From the NCBI GenBank assembly GCA_951406725.2, contig OX597831.1, positions 62,558,001-62,622,000 on the forward strand: DNA of 64,000 nucleotides. Direction: 5' to 3'. Below, in pieces: positions 3,366 through 56,271 of the stretch. The notes below the pieces were generated by a model. That model was not told the origin of the DNA and did no database searches. It saw only the letters and a list, made by a program, of their open reading frames with translations. Source of the DNA: Octopus vulgaris. Its lineage: Eukaryota. Position 1 is the first letter of the stretch. The number at the start of each line of letters is the position of its first letter. The translations under genes and the position numbers were made by a program.

Positions 3366-3530
3366 GGCGCAGGAGTGGCTGTGTGGTAAGTAGCTTGCTA
3401 ACCAGCCACATGGTTCCGGGTTCAGTCCCACTGCGTGGCATCTTGGCCAAGTGTCTTCTGCTATAGCCCCGGGCCGACCAATGCTTTGTGAGTGGATTTG
3501 GTAGACGGAAACTGAAAGAAGCCTGTCGTA

Positions 3531-3573
<43 letters not shown>

Positions 3574-3790
3574 TTGTGTGTCTGTGTTTGTCCCCCTAGC
3601 ATTGCTTGACAACCGATGCTGGTGCGTTTACGTCCCCATCACTTAGCAGTTCGGCAAAAGAGACCGATAGAACAAGTACTGGGCTTACAAAGAATAAGTC
3701 CCGGGGTCGATTTGCTCGACTAAAAGGCGGTGCTCCAACATGGCCGCAGTCAAATGACTGAAACAAGTAAAAACAGTAAAAGAGTAAAAG
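3366..3790 (+). mobile_element. SINE-A full-length copy (tRNA head, CORE-like segment, internal (TA)n(TG)n)
   Basis: A box tggctgtgtgg, B box ggttcagtcc, CORE-like catcttggccaagtg, internal microsatellite, (gtaaaa)-type tail; near identical to copies at 14032, 49859 and 55932. Confidence 0.9.
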
Positions 3791-5403: not shown

Positions 5404-5475
5404 ACTCACCGGTATGCTCAAGCAGCCAGCGCCATCTAACTGTCACGTAAAACAATCTAAGTTCAACTGACCAAT
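5404..5475 (-). promoter_or_regulatory. Candidate Pol II promoter and first-exon donor
   Basis: CCAAT at 5471-5475, tgtcacgt at 5441-5448, YY1-like cgccatct at 5430-5437, minus-strand donor GTGAGT at 5409-5404. Confidence 0.3.
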
Positions 5476-13481: not shown

Positions 13482-13629
13482 ACGGGCTTCTTTCAGTTTA
13501 CGTCTGCCAAAGCTCCACTCACAAAGCTTTAGTGAAAGACACTTACCCCAAGGTTCCACGCAGTGGGACTGAACCCAGAACCATGTGGCTGGTAATCAAG
13601 CTACTTTCCACAAAGTCACTCCTGCACCT
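13482..13629 (-). mobile_element. SINE-A 5' half
   Basis: Reverse complement aggtgcaggagtgac...ggttcagtcccactgcgtgg...aactgaaagaagcccgt. Confidence 0.8.
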
Positions 13630-14031: not shown

Positions 14032-14455
14032 GGCGCAGGAGTAACTGTGTGGTAACTAGCTTGTTTACCAACCACATGGTTCCGGGTTCAGTCCCACTGC
14101 GTGGCACCTTGGGCAAGTGTCTTCTACTATAGCCTCGGGCCGACCAAAGCCTTGTGAGTGGATTTGGTAGACGGAAACTGAAAGAAGCCCGTTGTATATA
14201 TGCATATACATATATATATTTGTGTGTGTGTGTGTGTGTGTGTGCGTGTTTGTGTGTTTGTATTTGTCCTACAACATCGCTTGACAACCGGTGATAGTGT
14301 GTTTACGTCACCGTAACTTAGCGATTCGGCAAAAGAGACCAATAGAATAAGTACTAGGCGTACAAAGAATAAGTCCTGGGGTCGATTTCCTCGACTAAAG
14401 GTGGTGCTCCAGCATGGCCGTAGTCAAATGACTGAAACAAGTAAAAGAATAAAGT
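14032..14455 (+). mobile_element. SINE-A full-length copy
   Basis: Colinear with 3366-3790. Confidence 0.9.
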
Positions 14456-16734: not shown

Positions 16735-17760
16735 CTAATTGTTAAAACTAAAGTGGTTATCTATATTATTTATATGAGTGGTAAGTGTGTTTTGCCAATG
16801 CTTATATTTGTACGATTTTTTTATGAGTGTTTTTACTAGGGGAATCTTGGCGAAAAGGATATAAAAGAGTTCAGAATTACAAATGTTACAAAATTTTCTG
16901 CCCTTATCAAAAGGAAAGGATACAGACAATATAAACCAATCCAACTTGAAAGTTATATTGTTGTCTTTAAGACGCCAAACTAATTTACTCAGACCTGTAC
17001 TATGTCGTTTTTTCTTATCTCGGAAAGTCGAATAATGTTTGGAAATTCTCTTGGATAACTGAGACGTTGTCGTACCTATATAGTAGAAGACATCGGTACC
17101 GGAAATAATTCTACACTGGTAAATGGAATTCTTAACTTTGGAATTACTGGACAAAAATTTTAATCTGTTAGGGTTCTCCTCCGAGATCGAGACGGAGTTT
17201 TTATTGTTATGATTGTTGTTTTTATTACTACAAGCGTTAACAACTACACTATTTCTATTATTATTATTATTATTATTAATTGCACTACAACCAGCTATAT
17301 CCCCGACAATAGTACCGTTGTTGTTGTTACCATCAACATTCCCGTTGTTATCAACCCGACTAATACTATTATTAATATTACCATTGCTAACACTAACGCT
17401 GCTACGAATGCTGTTACTATCAATACTATTTAGATTATTATGATTGTATGATGGGTTGGAATTAGTAAGATTAATGTTGGAACCCCCGGGTGAAGAATCT
17501 TTGTTTAGCAGCTTGTTATTATGGGAAGCAATAATTTGCGAAAGATTCTTAGTGTTAGAGAATGCTATTCTTACCTTGTGTGAATTGATAATAAAACGAT
17601 ATCTAGAATTACTGGGAAAGTTCCTAGCAATGGCTTCACGGAACTGAAAGGGAAGGTTCGATTTGATTTGTTTTCCGAAAGGTATTACAAACTAGATACA
17701 GTTTTTTGTAGACTTTGAATTGTTCCTAGTGTTATTTATGACAGTAAGGGGAAAATTTCT
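16735..17760 (-). mobile_element. Penelope-like element 3' part: post-RT region, Asn-rich linker, C-terminal GIY-YIG endonuclease (pseudogenised)
   Basis: ORF 16735-17154 has SIY...YIG...R...H and LSKLVWRLK...CNIC; upstream minus-strand peptide KVRIAFSNTKNLSQIIASHNNKLL is typical of PLEs. Confidence 0.8.
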
Positions 17761-32949: not shown

Positions 32950-34395
32950 TTAGGCAGTATGTGTAAAAACGTACTGATAGGCTAAGTATGACGTCATTCG
33001 GCGTACAAGAGAATGTTAGTTGTTAATATGAAAATTTATATTTTAATCCATGGCGTTTAGTTTATGCCTAAATAATATATTTCAACTATACAAAGCATTG
33101 CAAACGTTGGAAAATTTATTTGTTGTTGTTAAAGTTTGAGAATGATAAATCTTAGTAAGTCAAGAATGGTGGATTTGGTTCCTATGAGTAAACTGAAATG
33201 TATAACTGTACATAACAATCTATCTATGTATCTATCCATCTCTCTTTCATATATCTACATATTTCTCTACATATGTTCTATGTGTGCGTGTGTATGTGTG
33301 TGTGTGTGATTCGTAAATGGATAAGTGCATATAAATACATATATCGGTTGGAATCAAAGACAAGTTGCATTTTTAACGATTAAATTGGCCTTACCGTAAA
33401 CTAAGCATTAATTTTCGCATTCTCCTTTTTTATTGCTGCTGATTACTTTATAGCAAATTGGTTAACTTCTTATCGAATCTACCATTTTAAAATAACTTTA
33501 GATCGGACCAATATCAGATACTGCATGTTGTAGCTATTCAAACGGCTCTCTTCAGCAATGGAACTGGCAAGAAATATTCGCTCTGCCTATGCAATAGGAG
33601 CTTTACCTGCCCGGTCATGCCAGCGGTGGTCTGGCCAGTTTCACTCGTGAAATTTATATTCGCAGACTCTCGTGAGTGTGGACGAGCAAATACTATCTAT
33701 AATGAGCTTCTGGAAAGCAAAGATGAGGAAAATCAAATGCAAACTTGACGAGAATTAGGAAAACAATTCAATTAACGTTACGCTTTTATCATAAAACACT
33801 CTCATGAACTAGGAAGTACGTCTAACAGTGTCTAAACATTATCGGTGAGCCACACATCATCTCATTGCTTTCAGGCTTAATAAAAGTATTGCTATTCGGT
33901 CGTCATTGAATATAAGACTTGCTATAAGACCGTTCCTGAGTAGAAATGCCAGACGTGATAAAAAGCGGGCTCTCTATAATTACATTCGACGAAAACGACA
34001 ATGGTGAGCACTCGATGAAAGCCGACAATCCATACCCAAACTTCACACGAAAAAGTTTTGCTCAGTATTTCGTGGGATATGAAGTATTGAGCTGAAGCGA
34101 AACAGTTAATGTGAAGAAGTATTGTCAAGTGGAAGCTTTAAACAATAATTTACAGAAAATGCTACCATATCTGTTCAATTGCTGCTTTTCCACGATAATA
34201 GAAGACTACATTTTGTCCAAATCAATCAGGAAAAGGCTATGATAATATATATATATAAATTGTACGTCATCATCCTTATTCTTCTGTCCATGCCACATAT
34301 GACTATCAACTTTACAAATCATTGCAAATTATATTCAAAGGAAAACTGAAAATTTTAAAGATGATATCAAGTTACACACACATATATATATATAA

Positions 34396-36786
34396 TTGCA
34401 ATCTTAATTCCCGACATATAAAAACCAAACCAGCCAATCCCACTCCATGGCACCCATTTGACAACATAAACTTCCACAAAGCGGACTGGGGAACAATCAG
34501 AAATAATCTGTCTTCCATCGACTGGTCTTTTACTCTCAATTCCTCTCATATTGAGACCGCGTGGCAGCACTTTGAAAACATTGTCACCTATACATGCTCT
34601 AAACACGCTCCCAAGAAATCTACTAACACAAACAGAAACCGGCTCCGTAAAAAGAAAAAAACACTCATCAGGCGCATCAAAAGACTCAACAAAAAAATCA
34701 ACCAATTAAAATATTCCCACACACAACATCCACATTCAACAACAATGAAAAGACTAGAGCTGGAAAAACTTCATCTGCAGACCAACATGAAAACCTCCAT
34801 TGAAAATCAAAGAGCTGTGGTGGAACAATGGGTAATCAAAAACATCAAACAGAACCCAAAAGTGTTCTATTCTTATGCAAATAAGCATAGAACCACTGTC
34901 TCACCCATTGGGCCATTGATTGATGATAACGGCATTCCCCAACACGATGCTAAAGAAATGGCAGAAATACTACAGAAACAATACTGCTCTGTCTTTAGTG
35001 TTCCCACTGATTTTGACGTAAGGGAAACGAACGAAGTTGACTCCCAACACAAAATCTCAGACATAACCTTCACTGCCACTGACATCGTAGCAGCAATAAA
35101 TGATGTCAAACATTACTCTGCTGTAGGCCCTGATAGATTTCCCGCTAGTCTCCTGAAGGAATGTAGATACCAACTTGCAGTCCCTCTGACCAACTCCTGG
35201 AGAAATTCGTTAGACGCAAGTTATATACCGAAACAGTTTCTATCCCAGTCGGTCATCCCGGTTTTCAAACAGGGAAACAGGTCCCTCGTAGTCAACTATC
35301 GCCCAATCTCACTCACCTCCCACATCATTAGTGTTTGAAAGAGTGTTAAGATCAAGGATAGCTGACTTCCTGGAGACCCACAAACTCCTAAATGCAAATC
35401 AGCATGGCTTTCGCTGTGGCAGGGAATGTCTAACACAGTTCTTACACCACATTGAAGATATACTCAAAGCCTTGGGAACAGGTTCGAACTCTGACGTCAT
35501 ATATCTTGACTTCAGTAAAGCGTTCGACAGGGTAGACCATAATATCCTACTCTCAAAATTGGCAAATGTTGGAATCCGTGGGAAAGTTCTACACTGGATT
35601 AAGTATTTCCTGGCGAATAGAACACAACATGTTGTAGTTGATGGAGTCCACTCAAACCCAGCAAAAGTCACCAGGGGTGTTCCTCAGGGGACTGTTTTGG
35701 GTCCGCTACTCTTCATAATTTACATAAGCAACCTTTCCAGTATCGTACAATATTGCAAAGTGAAAATATTTGCTGATGACACTAAACTCCAGCAAATCGT
35801 CAATGAAGAAGCAGACCGAACTCAACTCCAGTCTGATCTATATGCTGTGAGTCAATGGGCAGACAGAAACAAAATGCAACTGAATGAGGGAAAATTTGAG
35901 CTGATGCATTTTGGAAGAAATTCCTCACTAAAACAACCATACTCTCTTCCTTCAGGGGAACCGCTCACAGCCTCTAACAATATCAGAAACCTGGGTGTAA
36001 TTGTTGATGACGATCTCAGTTGGAGTGCACACATCAACAAGAAGGTCGATATAGCTCGTAGGATGAGTTCCTGGATCTTAAGAACTTTCCGGTCCAGAGA
36101 ACAAGGTGTCATCATACCACTTTTTCCTCCTTTGTACGGCCACACCTTGAATACTGCTGCCCACTGTGGTCTCCTCACACAAGACAAAACATCTCCAGAA
36201 TTGAGTCACCCCAGAGGGCACTCACTAAACGAATTGAAGGCATGGCTGCTCTCGATTATTGGGATCGCCTTAAAGCCTTGAAACTTTACTCCCTCCAGCG
36301 TCGCCGTGAGCGGTACATCATTTGTACGATGTGGAAAATATACCGCCAACTTTGCCCAAACGACCTAAACATTAGCTTCAAGGTTCATCCAAGACTGGGA
36401 ACACGGGCTATACGTCCCCTGCCCAATTCAAGATCACAACATACATGTACACTGCAACATAATTTCTTTTCCTCAACAGGCCCTGCCCTATTTAACATTG
36501 TCCCGAGGGAGATCAAAGAGGAAAAGGATCCCATCAACTTTAAACGGAGTCTCGATAGATTCCTTCAAAGAATACCAGATAAGCCACCCATAATTGGATA
36601 CAACTCACCCAACAAGAACTCACTACTTGAACAAAACTGGATACAACTCACCCAACAAGAACTCACTACTTGAACAAAACTTGACTTAAACAGGATTCGA
36701 ATAATCCTATCAGGTGGTGCTATTAAGTTAGACATGGCCTGGACCAATCTTTGGTCGAAACATATCTAAGTTTATCTAAGTCTAAG

Positions 36787-49858: not shown

Positions 49859-50020
49859 GGCGCAGGAGTGGCTGTGTGGTAAGTAGCTTGCTTACCAACC
49901 ACACGGTTCCGGGTTCAGTCCCACTGTGTGGCATCTTGGGAAAGTGTCTTCTACTATAGCCTCGGGCAGACCAAAGCCTTGTGAGTGGATTTGGTAGACG
50001 GAAACTGAAAGAAGCCTGCC

Positions 50021-50086
<66 letters not shown>

Positions 50087-50303
50087 TTGTGTCTGTGTTT
50101 GTCCCCCCAACAACGCTTGACAACCGTTGATGGTATATTTACGTCCCCGTTACTTAGCGGTTCGGCAAAATAGACCGATAGAATAAGTACTAGGCTTACA
50201 ATGTATAAATCCTGGGGTCGATTTGCTCGACTAAAAAAAACACAAGCGGTGCTCCAGCATGGCTGCAGTCATATGACTGAAACAAGTAAAAGAGTAATAA
50301 GAG

Positions 50304-50460: not shown

Positions 50461-50461
<1 letters not shown>

Positions 50462-50498
50462 CGAAGGAGTGGCTGTGTGGTAAGTAGCTTTGCTAACC
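50461..50498 (+). mobile_element. SINE-A 5' head fragment (A box), interrupted by Tx1 insertion
   Basis: gcgaaggagtggctgtgtggtaagtagctttgctaacc matches the first ~38 nt of SINE-A. Confidence 0.85.
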
Positions 50499-50887
50499 TC
50501 ACTGACTGAAGAGTGACTTTGCCTACCGTACTACGGTTTGGACGCGTTTTCTTCCCGGTAAGAATTTTGCTGTGTTGTTAATTGTTGAATTTCTACTACT
50601 GAAAATTTGTCTTTAAACGTTGCTGAACTGTCTTGTTCTCCGGTTTTACCGGGGAATAATTGGATAATTTCTTACCGTTGAACTGTTAGCCATTGCGGCT
50701 TTTTATTTACGTGACTATACATAGTCCTGCCAGACTATTTTCGTGCCCCTCCCCCGAATAGGGGTGGGAATTGGAATTTTTGAACTGCTTTTTTTAACTA
50801 CTTTGGAAGAAAAAAATTCTATAAGTTTCCCAGCTTTGTTGGAAACCAACATTCGTAATTTTTGTGTTCTCTAATTTCAACAGAATA

Positions 50888-52289
50888 ATGTCTGTTGAAA
50901 TTATTCACGAAAGTAGTGCTCTTGAGGAGAGCAATGTTAAAAAATGTTCTGCGGTAGCCGCAGTGGCTACCGAGAACATTGACATCGATGTCAATCAGCT
51001 CGTCGAGCTATTTAAAAGAATGCAAGAGGAGGGTGGTGATGTTAAAATATCACCCTCCGCCAGTATCGTGGAGACTGAGAAGCGGACCGTAGTGTTTAAA
51101 ACTTTCTGTCCACAAAGCAGAAGTTTCAAACACTTTGAAAAAAGCACCATCGAGAAATGCCTGTCCCCGATTTGGAAGGACATCGTGTACGTCGCCAGGG
51201 GACGGGCATATGGCACTGTGGATGTCCGCTTCTCGGGGGAAGAAATGGCCCGCGGGCATTCTGTGAACCCCCTAAAAACCAAGGAGGTGGTACTTTTTCC
51301 AGGCTATAGGGGACGCAGGACGTCCCGGATCAGGATTGTAGAAGCCCCGCCGGAAGTAGATCCGGTAGAGGTAGTGGCCGCCCTGTTATATAAAAGGGCG
51401 GAAAAAATAAAAATACTACAAGTAACATGCTCTGCCCCTCGATTTTGGCTCGGGCGTAACATTAATATATTAATTCAAGGAGCAGCGGAAGACCTGCAGC
51501 TCCTTCCTGAGAGGGTGCTCGTGGGTGAGAACGTAGCCCTCAGGGTACAGGTCGAAGGCCGAAAACCCACCTGTTACGCCTGCGGCAAAAAGGGCCACAT
51601 TCGTGTAGACTGTCCAGACAAGCAAAAGAAACCGCAGACACCAGGCCCCTCAGATAATAAAAAAGTCCCTACCCTTGCAAACACACCTACCCCTACAAAA
51701 ACAAAAAATCCCACTCCTGCTGTTACGGTTCCAACCCCAAAACAGACTGAAGAAAAAACCCAGCCCTCGCACTCACAAACCCCTACACTATTAAAATCTC
51801 CCACCCCCTAAAAACTGCGGCGCCTACCGAACAAACTATTGCCACCCCAGACGATACCATGGAGGTATCAGAGGGGGATTTACACCAGTTCGTAAAAGAA
51901 TTCGTGCAGCATCCCCGTCCACATCCCCTACAAAAAATAATAAAAACAAAGACACACCACAGACACGGAAAAAGAAATCCCGCTCAACTGGCCCAGAAAA
52001 AGAAGACAAAAAAGAAAATGAGCTCATATTAATTGAATTCGACACACAAGACAAATACATAAACGATATTGTGGTTCAGCATCAGTCAGCAAGACTGTAC
52101 AACAAATACAAAGATCGAAATAGACACGCGTGGATTGCGGAAACAACGTTCAAACAATTAAAAGACAGACACCCAAACGCCATCCGGCATATCGCGAACT
52201 TGCCGGACTATCTGAAGAAAGAGGAGAAAGAAGGGGCCCACAAACGTGTGGTGAGGTCGGCCCCCACCTCTCCAACGAAATGTAAGTAG
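50888..52289 (+). CDS. Tx1 ORF1 gag-like protein (frameshifted near 51804-51880)
   Basis: ATG at 50888; CYACGKKGHIRVDC zinc knuckle; Pro/Thr/Lys-rich region continues in another frame to the stop at 52289, 17 nt before ORF2. Confidence 0.8.
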
Positions 52290-52306
52290 AACTTTTACTT
52301 GTTGTA

Positions 52307-55300
52307 ATGGCTTCGCTTAACCTTGGTTGTTTAAATGTGCGTGGTCTGAGTTCGAAGTGGAAGCAGGCTTGTTTCCTCGACGACCTCAGATCACATGATA
52401 TACATGTGATGGTTGCTACAGAGACCAAGCTGGACAGCCTACAAACCTTCTCGCCTCTCCTGAATGGCTACGAGAAAATCATGTCTCCTGGCCAGACCGG
52501 AGGGCGAGGGGGCGTAGTGGTACTGATCCGTAAAGACTTGGCTCTACAGACAAGTACAGTCTATGTAGACCCAGAAGGTGGGCTGGTCGTCCTTGATGTG
52601 ACATACAGCAGTAAGGCCTTCAGGTTGATCGGACTCTATGCACCTTGTGCTAGAGGTTTCCAGACTGATTTTTATCGGCGCCTAGAGGGCTTTCTCGTGA
52701 CGTCGAAGAGTTTAGTAATATTAGGGGACTTTAATGCTATCGTTGACGTACACATCGATAGCGTTGGCTCGATCTATAGGAACGTGAACTCACGTCTCGT
52801 GGATCTGCTTAAGCGGTTTCAGCTGGCAGTTCGTTACAGACTTGACCATCCGAACGTCCCAGATTGGACCTGGATGAGTGGCGACGGAAGGTTCAAGTCT
52901 TATCTAGACAGGATAGTGATAAGAACTAGAGATAAGTCTAGTTTTAGTTGTCCACAGCTCGTCCAGGTGCCCTATACTGACCATAGAATGGTCGCGTGTA
53001 GACTGAACATAGATAGCACACTTAAGATAGGAACCGGCTACTGGAAGCTGAACAAGTCTATTTTGACACGCGAGGCATACCGTAGCCGGATTAAGGTGTT
53101 AGTGCAGAGGGCGTTAACCGGAGCCGTGGTTAATAACCGGTGGTGGTTCACCCTCAAAAGAGCCATTCGATTCGAGTCCATTAGATTTAGTAAACAACTA
53201 AGACTAGATAGGGCTAGAATAGAAGGGCAACTAGTTAAGAACTTAGAGGAGGCGTTGAGGTTGGGCTCTGCATCTCACATTTTAGCGGCGAGAACGGCAT
53301 TAGACCGTCACCTCAAAACCAAACATGAGGGATGTAGAGTCCGGGCTAAAGTACGAGCATTGGGCCGTGAGGGAATTAATGTTGCCGGATGGGCCCGTAC
53401 GATAGAAACACAGCGTGGAAACGATGCCACAATTGGGTCTCTTGTTGATGAAAACGGATGCACGATCAAGAAGTTGGACGAGATGTGTGAGGCACTTCAC
53501 AAGCACTTCGCCGAGTTGTTCGGGAGGTGCGGGACGCTGGATCATGGTGAGGCCCTTAGGGACTTCCTGTCTGGTGGCCCGCGCCTCTCGACACGAGAGG
53601 CTGAGTGCTGTGAAGGGCCAATCACAGCCGAGGAAGTAATCGAGGTGTTGGGCAAGTGCCCCGGGGAGAAGTCGCCGGGTCTCGATGGTCTGCCCTATGA
53701 ATTTTATAGAAGTATGCCAGACTTGTTCGGGCACCTGCTGGCTAGCGTCTACGCCAACTGGCAGCAGAATGGGAGAATTTCCAAGTCTGCGAGCCGGGGG
53801 GCGGTGACGTTGATCAGGAAGGACCCGAACAAGGGGGACGAGATAGGGAACTTCAGGCCCATAACTCTGTTAAACACAGAGTTAAAGATTCTGGCCAAGG
53901 TGCTAGCAAAAAGGTTGGCGCGGGTCGTGGACAAACTTGTTGGGGAAGCGCAAACGTGCGCTATCCCCGGCAGAACGATCGACGACAATCTCCACCTTAT
54001 ACGCTACTCCTTAGAGAGGGTGGGGAAGCTTTCTGGCGCAGGGGGAGCACTGGTACATTTAGACCAGTCCAAAGCATTTGATAGGGTCGACCATCGGTAC
54101 CTGGCGGCGGTCCTCGGAGAGGCTGGCCTAGGCCCGACCTTTCGAGGTTGGATCGCTGCTCTGTATAGCGACATCGAGTCTGTAGTCAAGGTGAACGGTT
54201 CCTTTTCGAAGCCGTTCAGGATCGAGCGTTCAGTTCGTCAAGGGTGTCCCCTGTCCTCGCTCCTATACTTATTGGCTCTTGAGCCTTTGCTGCGGAAGTT
54301 GGAGGCACTAGGGGGCGCGCCGCATGATCTATGGTGTGGAAGAGGAGCTACGGCGTATGCGGATGATACCTCCATCATCGTGGCAGACGAAGGCCAGCTT
54401 CCAGTGGTGGAAGAGGCCATCAAAAGCTACGAGGCGGTGGCAGGAGCAAAGGTTAACAAGGACAAGTCGGTCGGTTTGCAACTCGGCACCTGGAGGTGCA
54501 AGCCGATGCCGTCCAATAACGTCGTAGGGCGTTGGACGGAAGGTCCTGTTAAGCTGCTCGGAGTCTGGTTCGGGCCAGACCTCCAGATTGAGAAAAATTG
54601 GAGTGAGGTGGCCAACAAGGTGACCGCTCTAACCCAGACCTGGTCTGGGCGGGCGTTATCCCTGCTAGGGAAGGCGGAGGTGGTGCAGATGTTTATAGCA
54701 TCAGTAATCACCTACCGTCTGACCGTGGTGCCTTGCCCCGATTTGTGGCTGAACAAGTTGGAGAGAATCCTTTTCCGATTTTTGTGGAAAGGAGGAAAGC
54801 CACTTGTAAAGCGCTCTGTCTGCTGCCAGAAACCGCTAAAGGGTGGGCTAGGAATGCCTTGGCTGAGGACGCGAAAACTCGCGTTAAGGTTGAGGCACCT
54901 CTGGCTTTACCTGGATGGAGAGCAGGTGTGGTCACCGCACGTCCGGTTCTACCTTCCCCAGTTAACATCCCTAACGGACATCGGTGCATGGATCAAGCGG
55001 AGACCTAAACTGAGTGAATGGCATTTGGAGTGCCGTCAGGCGCTCCAGCTACTATCTCGGGTGGGCAACGCCGGCAACAGGAGTTCCACCACGGATTTCT
55101 ATAGCGGGTTAGTGGAGATTAAGTCCGAAGACGCCTTGGGGGAGACCCTGGGGCTACGATGAAAATCAGTTGGTCAACCTGTTCCGGAGGACGTTCGGGC
55201 CGGGGTATCTGCATAATTACCAGAAATCCCTGGCCTGGCAGTGTTTCCGTGCGGCTTTACCTGCTCGCGACAAGCTGTCAAGGCACGGTAGTGCCGTCTC

Positions 55301-55703
55301 GCCGACATGCCCGCGATGTGAGCAGGATAGGGAGACCGTCTCGCACGCATTTGTGGAGTGTCCGGAGTTATCGGGACTGATAGCTTTTGTTGAACAACTG
55401 TTGTCAGTGATGGGAAGAGTACAGCTTTCAGCTGAGTCTATCATCGAGATTGTGCCGCCCCCTTTCCTTAACAGGGAAAGAAAGGCTTGTTTTTTCTGTG
55501 TAGTAGCCATACTGAAAGAAACAGTATGGAAGACGCGTACGAAAGGTATAGTGACAGGCACCTTTGTCTCTGTTACCACCTTTGTCTTTAGTTACCACCT
55601 CAGTAGCAAAATCAGGCTGGAGAAGAGGTGTCTGTCACGAGATATGTTTGTGAAAAGATGGAAGCATGTGGCATACAAGATGGGTATGTTTGGCACCAGA
55701 TAA
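52307..55703 (+). CDS. Tx1 ORF2: AP endonuclease, reverse transcriptase, C-terminal zinc finger (one +1 frameshift near 55150)
   Basis: LNVRG, ETK, GDFN, LDR, TDH (APE); KSPGLDGLP, NFRPITLLN, LDQSKAFD, VRQGCPLS, YADD (RT); KGGLG; CPRCEQDRETVSHAFVEC. Confidence 0.92.
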
Positions 55704-55931
55704 GTGTGACCGGATCAGAAAGTAAAGGTTCTACCCGGATGGCTGGGTGTCCGTCCTTCGACATGATCATTAATATTTTTAAACATTGCCTTCGTAAAAT
55801 TCATTGTTTATAATCTTACCCGTAATTTCATTCGAAAATTGTAACTGTGTTAAGCTACTTCACCCTTTATATTTGTCTGTCCTTGTTTGTCCCCTCTTTG
55901 TAAATGCCTAAATGGCAAATTATATGAAATA

Positions 55932-56271
55932 AAGTAGCTTGCTAATCAACCACATGGTTCCGGGTTCAGTCCCACTGCGTGGCATCTTGGGCAAGTGTCT
56001 TCTGCTATAGCCTCGGGCCGACCAATGCCTTGTGAGTGGATTTGGTAGACGGAAACTGAAAGAAGCCCGTCGTATATATGTATATATATATATGTGTGTG
56101 TATGTGTTTGTGTCAGTGTTTTTCCCCCTAGCATTGCTTGACAACCGATGCTGGTGTGTTTACGTCCCCGTTACTTAGCGGTTCGGCAAAAGAGACCGAT
56201 AGAATAGGTACTGGCGGTGCTCCAGCATGGCCGCAGTCAAATGACTGAAACAAGTAAAAGAGTAAAAGAGA

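What the first reader, a model, noticed from the sequence alone, without database searches (positions are those of the whole stretch)
50461..55972. Full-length Tx1 inserted between the A and B boxes of a tRNA-derived SINE
Seen: SINE-A is split; the head with A box (50461-50498) lies left and the rest with B box (55963-55972) lies right, in the same orientation as the LINE, with duplicated target aagtagctt(t)gctaa(c/t)c (50482-50498; 55932-55947). Known: Tx1-clade endonucleases are often sequence-specific (Keno U2 snRNA, Mutsu 5S rRNA, Dewa tRNA spacers, Kibi/Koshi microsatellites, Tx1L in a DNA transposon). Inference: this family may target the anticodon-arm region of SINE-A or its parent tRNA, using an abundant SINE as a safe harbour and disabling its Pol III promoter. 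One insertion cannot establish specificity.
Basis: partly seen in the sequence, partly recalled or inferred. Interest (0 to 1): 0.75.

Follow-up and report, generated by a model that had tools for sequence, protein, structure and literature searches.

The report
Jumping gene aimed at SINE heads
A young family of long jumping genes (LINEs) and its enzyme-less passengers insert almost only at one exact base inside this animal genome's very common short repeat (a SINE), rebuild that landing site with their own front end, and carry a tail sequence complementary to it that likely base-pairs with it, which makes them a natural model for how such elements become site-specific.

Summary
Confirmed, and the scan found this before on other DNA of this genome. 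The 5.44-kb L1/Tx1-type LINE splits a tRNA-like SINE at GGT^AAGTAG, just 3' of the A box. Of 115 exact genomic matches to its 3' end, 111 continue into AAGTAG; chance is about 1e-4 or less per insertion. All 30 sampled 5' ends sit at the same base. Copies are 1.3% apart but sit in different SINE subfamilies, so this is not hitchhiking. Corrections: the left 'duplication' is partly an element-coded target mimic (23 of 24 copies); the true stagger, 16 bp, shows in truncated copies; tRNA genes are not the target (0 of 81 junctions). About 1,200 elements share the tail, many ORF1-only passengers, and about 90% use this site and often stack. A 9-nt tail motif antisense to the target (4 of 5,000 shuffles) switches with the target variant. 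Likely mechanism: sequence-specific nicking aided by RNA pairing. Tx1-clade membership was not tested by tree. No SINE-targeting Tx1 turned up in ten literature searches; Repbase was not available.

The parts
50461..50481 (+). SINE head left of the insertion, with A-box-like TGGCTGTGTGG (50470-50480); target-derived
   Evidence: heads vary among copies and have unique upstream flanks
50482..50499 (+). 5' junction: duplicated target start fused to the element-coded target mimic (ending GCTAACCT), with an extra T
   Evidence: 5' side reads CTAACCT in 23 of 24 copies whose target differs; extra-T form in 16 of 17 cases goes with a mismatched target
50500..50887 (+). 5' UTR of the LINE
   Evidence: (40 scored matches 97-100% identical)
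50888..52289 (+). ORF1 (zinc knuckle), broken near 51800 in this copy; 466 aa in natural copy L106
52307..55703 (+). ORF2: APE endonuclease, reverse transcriptase, zf-RVT; frame change near 55150 in this copy; 1133 aa in L106
55852..55860 (+). Tail motif AAGCTACTT, reverse complement of the first 9 target bases
   Evidence: 4 of 5,000 shuffles give any such 9-mer; predicted to pair with downstream target in read-through RNA
55872..55897 (+). Pyrimidine-rich tail stretch shared with a second SINE family (SINE-B)
   Evidence: exact shared stretch of 26-27 nt in 6 of 20 SINE-B loci, 9-24 nt in the rest
55905..55931 (+). Conserved 3' end: TGCC-N5-GGCA hairpin then RAAATA; AATAAA is completed by the first two target bases (55928-55933); no poly(A) tail
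   Evidence: 1,215 genomic matches, control 1
55932..55947 (+). Target site, right copy (16 bp)
55948..56263 (+). Rest of the SINE, with B-box-like GGTTCAGTCC (55963-55972)
49860..50295 (+). Intact neighbouring copy of the same SINE (empty-site reference)
   Evidence: head weakly like tRNA-Lys(TTT), z 6.6

Best explanation
This is a young L1/Tx1-type LINE that inserts at one fixed base (GGT^AAGTAG) of an abundant tRNA-like SINE, likely by target-primed reverse transcription from a sequence-specific nick. Shown: the fixed site, independent insertions, a 16-bp stagger, an element-coded 5' copy of the target, ORF1-only passengers at the same site, stacking, and a tail motif antisense to the target that switches with the target variant. 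Inferred steps: (1) the APE domain nicks the bottom strand at TT/AC, an L1-like step with extended specificity; (2) the poly(A) signal straddles the junction, so the RNA would end in about 15-20 bases of target, which can anneal to the nicked primer as reported for R1Bm and would fold back on the tail motif; (3) the top strand is cut 16 bp downstream and its overhang anneals to the copied 5' mimic, cleanly if the target matches and with trimming and an extra base if not; (4) the rebuilt site takes later insertions, giving arrays; (5) passengers with the same 3' hairpin borrow ORF2 in trans. The SINE serves as a dispersed, low-cost landing site.
For: 111 of 115 exact 3' ends continue AAGTAG; the queries held no SINE sequence. 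30 of 30 5' ends at the same base, 29 behind a SINE head, 1 behind a passenger. At least 92,400 SINE sites, 1.65e-5 per random insertion. 32 copies differ by 1.3% on average while flanking SINE bodies are of several subfamilies (CTAA 38, CTTA 21, TTTA 6, other 5 of 70). 16-bp duplications in 5'-truncated copies L264, L290, L221, L239. L290 sits in a non-SINE repeat sharing the first nine target bases. Mimic: 23 of 24, and extra-T form versus target mismatch p 2.5e-6; junction forms are scattered on the tree. Catalytic APE residues are invariant in 10 aligned proteins. 4 of 33 full-length copies have an unbroken ORF2. Tail motif versus target type in the 60 loci: AGCTTC with AAGAAG-type sites 9, with AAGTAG-type 1; AGCTAC-type with AAGTAG 35, with AAGAAG 1 (read by hand).
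Against: No biochemistry; nick positions are deduced and ambiguous by up to 2 bases of A-overlap. No RNA ends were seen. Fold z-scores are weak (-0.7 to -1.7). One passenger family (4 copies: L234, L237, L262 upstream, L303) lacks the motif yet hits both target types, so the motif is not needed to find the SINE. Copies in the motif table are related, and the tail tree is short and poorly resolved. 9 of 36 plain-form 5' junctions have mismatched targets and the GT form (6 copies) ignores the target. 2 of the 4 exceptions to the 111 were inspected: one is a 1-base shift still in the SINE, one a diverged copy off target.
Confidence: 0.85

Rival explanations
1. RNA-guided choice: the tail motif and the read-through bases pair with the two DNA strands of the target, and this pairing, not the protein, picks the variant.
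For: Motif and target switch together in passengers that encode no endonuclease, also at non-SINE sites (L223, L225, L227, L249 at AGAA-type sites; L232, L233, L242 at AAGTAG sites). Own target folds better than the one-base swap in 24 of 28 T-type loci and 9 of 14 distinct A-type loci (two duplicate rows dropped).
Against: An RNA-RNA stem plus different partner enzymes at different times explains the same table. The motif-less family still hits the SINE. Tx1L-EN alone nicks its target almost exclusively (PMC1950540, passage).
Confidence: 0.2
2. Tethering to Pol III machinery on the SINE promoter positions the insertion, as recalled for TRE5-A and Ty3 near tRNA genes.
For: The cut is one base after the A box; L239 lies at the same place in a related SINE-like head.
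Against: 0 of 81 junctions in tRNA genes; L290 lies in a non-SINE repeat with the same nine bases; the AAGAAG variant (6 of 37 unselected heads) is not used by this family (0 of 79).
Confidence: 0.07
3. Hitchhiking or chimera: one SINE+LINE unit was copied as a whole, or the SINE halves are the LINE's own ends.
For: Same orientation and register everywhere; two array units are identical, so some copies did arise by local duplication.
Against: SINE bodies belong to different subfamilies while the LINE is 98-99% alike; truncated copies use the same site with private variants on both sides (L264, L265); unrelated passenger bodies use the same base.
Confidence: 0.03
4. Random L1-like insertion followed by selection or chance.
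For: The deduced nick TT/AC resembles the L1 site TTTT/AA (PMC1950540, passage).
Against: Single-base precision at 96%; first six target bases invariant in 79 of 79 junctions that begin AAG; selection cannot choose one base of a neutral repeat.
Confidence: 0.01

Closest known systems
Tx1L in Tx1D (Xenopus laevis)
   Same: APE-type LINE inserted at a defined site inside another mobile element; endonuclease alone is highly specific (PMC1950540 and PMC4494074, passages)
   Different: Target is a non-autonomous piggyBac DNA transposon, not a SINE. The beta-hairpin loop here aligns without a gap to the L1 loop, whereas the Tx1L loop has a longer tip (PMC1950540, passage).
Crocodilian Tx1-Mar with SINEU passengers; Tx1-8_Crp, Tx1-4_AMi, Tx1-9_AMi (Kojima 2015, PMC4494074; section 15 and part 3 of 5 read)
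   Same: Tx1 families and their passengers share a target inside another transposon and are often in tandem
   Different: Targets are Mariner, Harbinger and LTR elements, described as preferred regions; here a SINE, one base, 96%. Passengers here are 2-kb ORF1-only elements.
Keno (U2), Mutsu (5S), Dewa (tRNA-Leu spacer), Kibi/Koshi (microsatellites)
   Same: Tx1-clade targeting of multicopy sequences (PMC3706591, PMC4494074, passages)
   Different: Targets are host RNA genes or microsatellites; here a selfish Pol III-type repeat, and tRNA genes are not hit
R1Bm / SART1Bm target annealing
   Same: RNA 3' sequence pairs with the nicked target; R1Bm needs downstream target sequence for accurate priming (PMC7265360, passages)
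   Different: Those are sense-strand matches in R1-clade elements; here there is also an antisense motif 30-80 nt upstream that switches with the target, and a 5' mimic
HAL1 (ORF1-only L1 derivatives; recalled, only a search listing seen)
   Same: Non-autonomous elements keeping ORF1 and a 3' tail
   Different: Here several families, about 30% identical to the LINE's ORF1, all site-specific

Membership tests
L1 group of non-LTR retrotransposons (L1 and Tx1 clades) | ORF2 with N-terminal APE endonuclease and non-LTR RT | tested here: met
   Pfam PF03372, PF00078; best solved relative human L1 ORF2p E 1e-66, R2 only 1e-19
L1 group of non-LTR retrotransposons (L1 and Tx1 clades) | Two ORFs, no LTRs, variable 5' truncation, target-site duplication | tested here: met
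Tx1 clade | RT groups with Tx1L, Keno, Mutsu and kin in a tree | not testable with these tools
   No named Tx1 reference among the 120 hits listed or the cluster members listed; Repbase not available
Tx1 clade | ORF1 with CCHC zinc knuckle and ORF2 with C-terminal zf-RVT (recalled as typical, not exclusive) | tested here: met
   PF00098 and PF13966
Tx1 clade | Target specificity by Kojima's criterion (over 20% of flanks in one sequence type, PMC4494074 methods passage) | tested here: met
   111 of 115
Tx1 clade | Endonuclease nicks the target specifically in vitro | not testable with these tools
   bench assay needed
tRNA-gene-targeting elements (Dewa-like) | Insertion in or beside real tRNA genes | tested here: not met
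   0 of 81 junctions; 8 or more mismatches in 20 to 35 sampled tRNAs
tRNA-derived SINE (the target) | Head with A and B boxes homologous to a tRNA | tested here: inconclusive
   A/B-box-like motifs present; best match tRNA-Lys(TTT), z 6.6 against shuffles; no Rfam tRNA or ARAGORN hit
tRNA-derived SINE (the target) | Short, dispersed, very abundant, simple-repeat tail | tested here: met
   92,400 head matches, 49,451 tail matches ending in AAAGAGT-type repeats
HAL1-like ORF1-only passengers | ORF1 homologue, no ORF2, shared 3' tail | tested here: met
   L141-L143: ORF1 hits at 27-31% identity, no ORF2 inside the 2-kb units; shared tail

The most novel reading that the evidence does not exclude
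The element's RNA helps choose the DNA target: a stem formed by the antisense tail motif and the read-through target bases opens and pairs with both DNA strands at the site, so changing one base of the tail retargets the same enzyme, a programmable, partly RNA-guided LINE that also rebuilds its own landing site.
Probability: 0.2. Interest if true: 0.88.

Novelty: new variant of a known kind. Interest (0 to 1): 0.62.

Why it matters
Site-specific LINEs are sought as gene-insertion tools, and APE-type ones are few. This one is young (1.3% apart, some intact ORF2), precise to one base, and comes with natural variants whose target and RNA tail change together, so the old question of how much of APE-LINE specificity is protein and how much is RNA pairing becomes testable by swapping one base. 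It also reverses the usual roles: a LINE uses a SINE as its habitat. The paired junctions give a rare genomic read-out of second-strand joining: a 16-base overhang annealing to an element-coded mimic.

Tried and rejected
Rfam and ARAGORN found no tRNA in the SINE head. Homologue searches gave no named Tx1 reference, so no clade tree was built. A single-sequence fold of the EN domain was unusable (pLDDT 39.6) and was not searched. Sequencing runs: no RNA holder listed; contigs of 4 runs cover the element but cannot show RNA ends or expression. The idea that the 5' junction forms are inherited was rejected (scattered on the tree). The idea that the targeted SINE inserts into its own head at this site was not supported by two patterns: 2 and 1 matches against 49,451 tails; other tail forms were not tried. 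PMC85248 (Tx1L endonuclease paper) is not held. The automatic motif classifier misread L205, L310, L235 and L248; counts given are corrected by hand and limited to the 60 loci, half of which were drawn from the rarer class with A at flank position 8. The repeat scan was swamped by microsatellites. Supplements of PMC13282606 (repeat library) and PMC4494074 (target figures) were not opened and could hold a description of this family.
Full report
Observation. The window shows a SINE head (50461-50481), a 5.45-kb insert and the rest of the SINE (55932-56263) on one strand. Both halves align in register to the intact copy at 49860-50295. The insert encodes ORF1 with a zinc knuckle and ORF2 with APE endonuclease, RT and zf-RVT. 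Both ORFs are broken in this copy; natural copy L106 has them whole, 466 and 1133 aa. The closest solved protein is human L1 ORF2p (E 1e-66). No named Tx1 reference came up, so the clade label rests on architecture and is likely, not shown. The organism is called octopus-like in earlier notes; I used that only as a literature lead.

Specificity. A 21-base query from the element's 3' end, with no SINE sequence, has 115 exact matches in G000; 111 continue into AAGTAG. I inspected 2 of the 4 exceptions: one is a one-base shift still in the SINE, one a diverged copy elsewhere. Of 81 distinct 3' junctions held, the script classed 70 as SINE body, 5 as the head of another element and 6 as other, of which one is a SINE body missed by the pattern. 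All 30 loci from the 5' search start at the same base, 29 behind a SINE head and 1 behind a passenger tail. These samples favour young copies.

Independent insertions. 32 full-length copies differ by 1.3% on average (0.13-2.4%), yet their SINE bodies belong to several subfamilies and their upstream flanks are unique. Truncated copies use the same site. The CTAA subfamily is modestly favoured: 38 of 70 against 33 of 100 listed intact SINEs (counted by eye; p 0.007; the control is only the first 3 Mb of one contig). The AAGAAG variant, 6 of 37 unselected heads, is never used by this family (0 of 79). tRNA genes are not hit, and the target is 8 or more changes in 20 from all 35 sampled tRNAs; the head resembles tRNA-Lys(TTT) weakly.

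Junction anatomy. 5'-truncated copies show the real stagger: 16 bp in L264 and L290, L221 and L239; others keep 1-10 bp or lose bases, often at short homologies. In full-length copies the left side is partly element-coded: it reads CTAACCT in 23 of 24 copies whose target differs there. Among 59 paired copies the extra-T form goes with a mismatched target 16 times of 17, the plain form 9 times of 36 (p 2.5e-6); a third form (6 copies) splits 3 and 3. The forms are scattered on the tree, so they arise at insertion. I infer that the top-strand overhang anneals to the copied mimic. The result is a rebuilt target upstream of every full copy. The window copy is an extra-T case with a mismatched target, which is why its two repeats differ.

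Passengers and stacking. The 3' hairpin-plus-RAAATA end has 1,164 + 51 matches, control 1 + 0. 91 of the first 100 listed continue within one change or a one-base shift of AAG(T/A)AGCT (by eye). Many are 2-kb elements with an ORF1 homologue about 30% identical and no ORF2, each with its own target-like head. 5 of 81 3' junctions run into another element's head and 7 of 59 5' ends follow another element's tail, against at most 1.3% expected from 1,215 elements on 92,400 sites. The C9 triple fits successive upstream insertion; the seven-unit C1 array, with two identical units, fits local duplication or repeated use of one template.

Tail motif. Note e1-8667107 led me to it; I tested it here. AAGCTACTT at 55852-55860 is the reverse complement of the first nine target bases; 4 of 5,000 dinucleotide shuffles of the 3' UTR hold any such 9-mer. 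In three families the predicted fold pairs the motif with downstream target bases, with weak z-scores. In the 60 loci, AGCTTC tails lie at AAGAAG-type sites 9 times, at AAGTAG-type once and elsewhere once; AGCTAC-type tails lie at AAGTAG-type sites 35 times, AAGAAG once, elsewhere 3 times; the rest have no readable motif (corrected by hand). The own target folds better than the one-base swap in 24 of 28 T-type and 9 of 14 distinct A-type loci. Copies are related; the tail tree suggests three or more switches but is weak. One family lacks the motif and hits both variants (4 copies). So pairing is likely; its partner (read-through RNA or target DNA) and its role in choosing the site are open.

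Mechanism. Best reading: target-primed reverse transcription from a specific nick at TT/AC; RNA that runs past the junction-spanning AATAAA into the target and anneals to the primer, as described for R1Bm (PMC7265360, passages); a second nick 16 bp on; joining through the 5' mimic. All enzymatic steps are inferred. L290, in a non-SINE repeat with the same nine bases, argues for sequence reading over tethering to Pol III factors.

Known systems. Tx1L targets a piggyBac derivative, and crocodilian Tx1 families target Mariner, Harbinger and LTR elements with SINEU passengers (PMC4494074: passages, section 15 whole, part 3 of 5). Tx1L-EN is specific alone (PMC1950540, passages). Keno, Mutsu and Dewa target RNA genes or spacers (PMC3706591, passages). 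The O. vulgaris repeat paper lists active L1-Tx1 but has no occurrence of 'target' or 'nested' (PMC13282606, passages). PMC4758252, PMC3747384 and PMC8869645 (passages) add nothing on a SINE target. Ten searches (listings seen) showed no SINE-targeting Tx1. Repbase, subscription journals and the supplements were not seen. TRE5-A, Ty3 and HAL1 are recalled.

Verdict. A real, well-supported site-specific LINE system with a target class I did not find in print: new variant of a known kind. Eight earlier notes of this scan describe it or its sister system on other pieces of this genome; they are not independent support. For the SINE studied here, self-insertion at the site was not supported; a second SINE does self-target. 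Interest 0.62; the RNA-guided reading has probability 0.2 and would merit 0.88.

Noticed in passing
L314-L333 (G000:C1); window 55872-55897: A second SINE (SINE-B, at least 31,845 tails) shares up to 27 exact bases of tail with this LINE. 26 of the 100 listed tails run into AGGTATTTCG (counted by eye), an inner site of the same SINE, some in 183-184-bp tandem runs; none runs into the site studied here. Likely a sister system, probably the self-targeting SINE of the earlier notes. 4 loci with ATACC in the tail all have GGTA-type flanks and 2 of the CGTTT loci have AAACG flanks, but others do not fit.
   Followed up: partly
G000:C1:223.69-223.71 Mb (L291-L293); C9:2.66-2.68 Mb (L294-L295); L296: Arrays at the site: seven ORF1-only units plus one LINE (units 0-15 substitutions apart, 47-58 from L141 and L143), three LINEs head to tail (25-49 apart, the 5'-most closest to the youngest clade), and a 3+1 passenger array.
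   Followed up: yes
L207, L209, L217, L298-L307: Passenger families that use the AAGAAG variant of the SINE, with heads that mimic that variant; no autonomous partner for them was found among these loci.
   Followed up: partly
L203; L232, L233; L239; L147: Off-site insertions: a second SINE position (AAGTGTCTT), (AGT)n microsatellites, a related SINE-like head with a 16-bp duplication, and a diverged copy at an unrelated site.
   Followed up: partly
window 34259-36673 (+) and 16735-17691 (-): A second RT-encoding element in pieces (RVT_1 E 4.5e-27) and an ORF with a weak GIY-YIG hit (E 0.0096, below cut-off); possibly Penelope-like remnants.
   Followed up: no
P0098, P0100 clusters: Distant fish homologues (29% identity, Coilia grayii) carry near-consecutive locus tags, suggesting a tandem array there too.
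   Followed up: no
window 3367-3772, 13485-13625, 14033-14448, 49860-50295: Four further copies of the target SINE in the window, none with an insertion at the site as far as the alignment shows.
   Followed up: partly
PMC13282606 Table 1: 421 recently active L1-Tx1 insertions in Octopus vulgaris cover 2,288,644 bp, 5,436 bp each, the length of full copies here (5,405-5,442 for those without large indels); a hint for the Tx1 label only.
   Followed up: no
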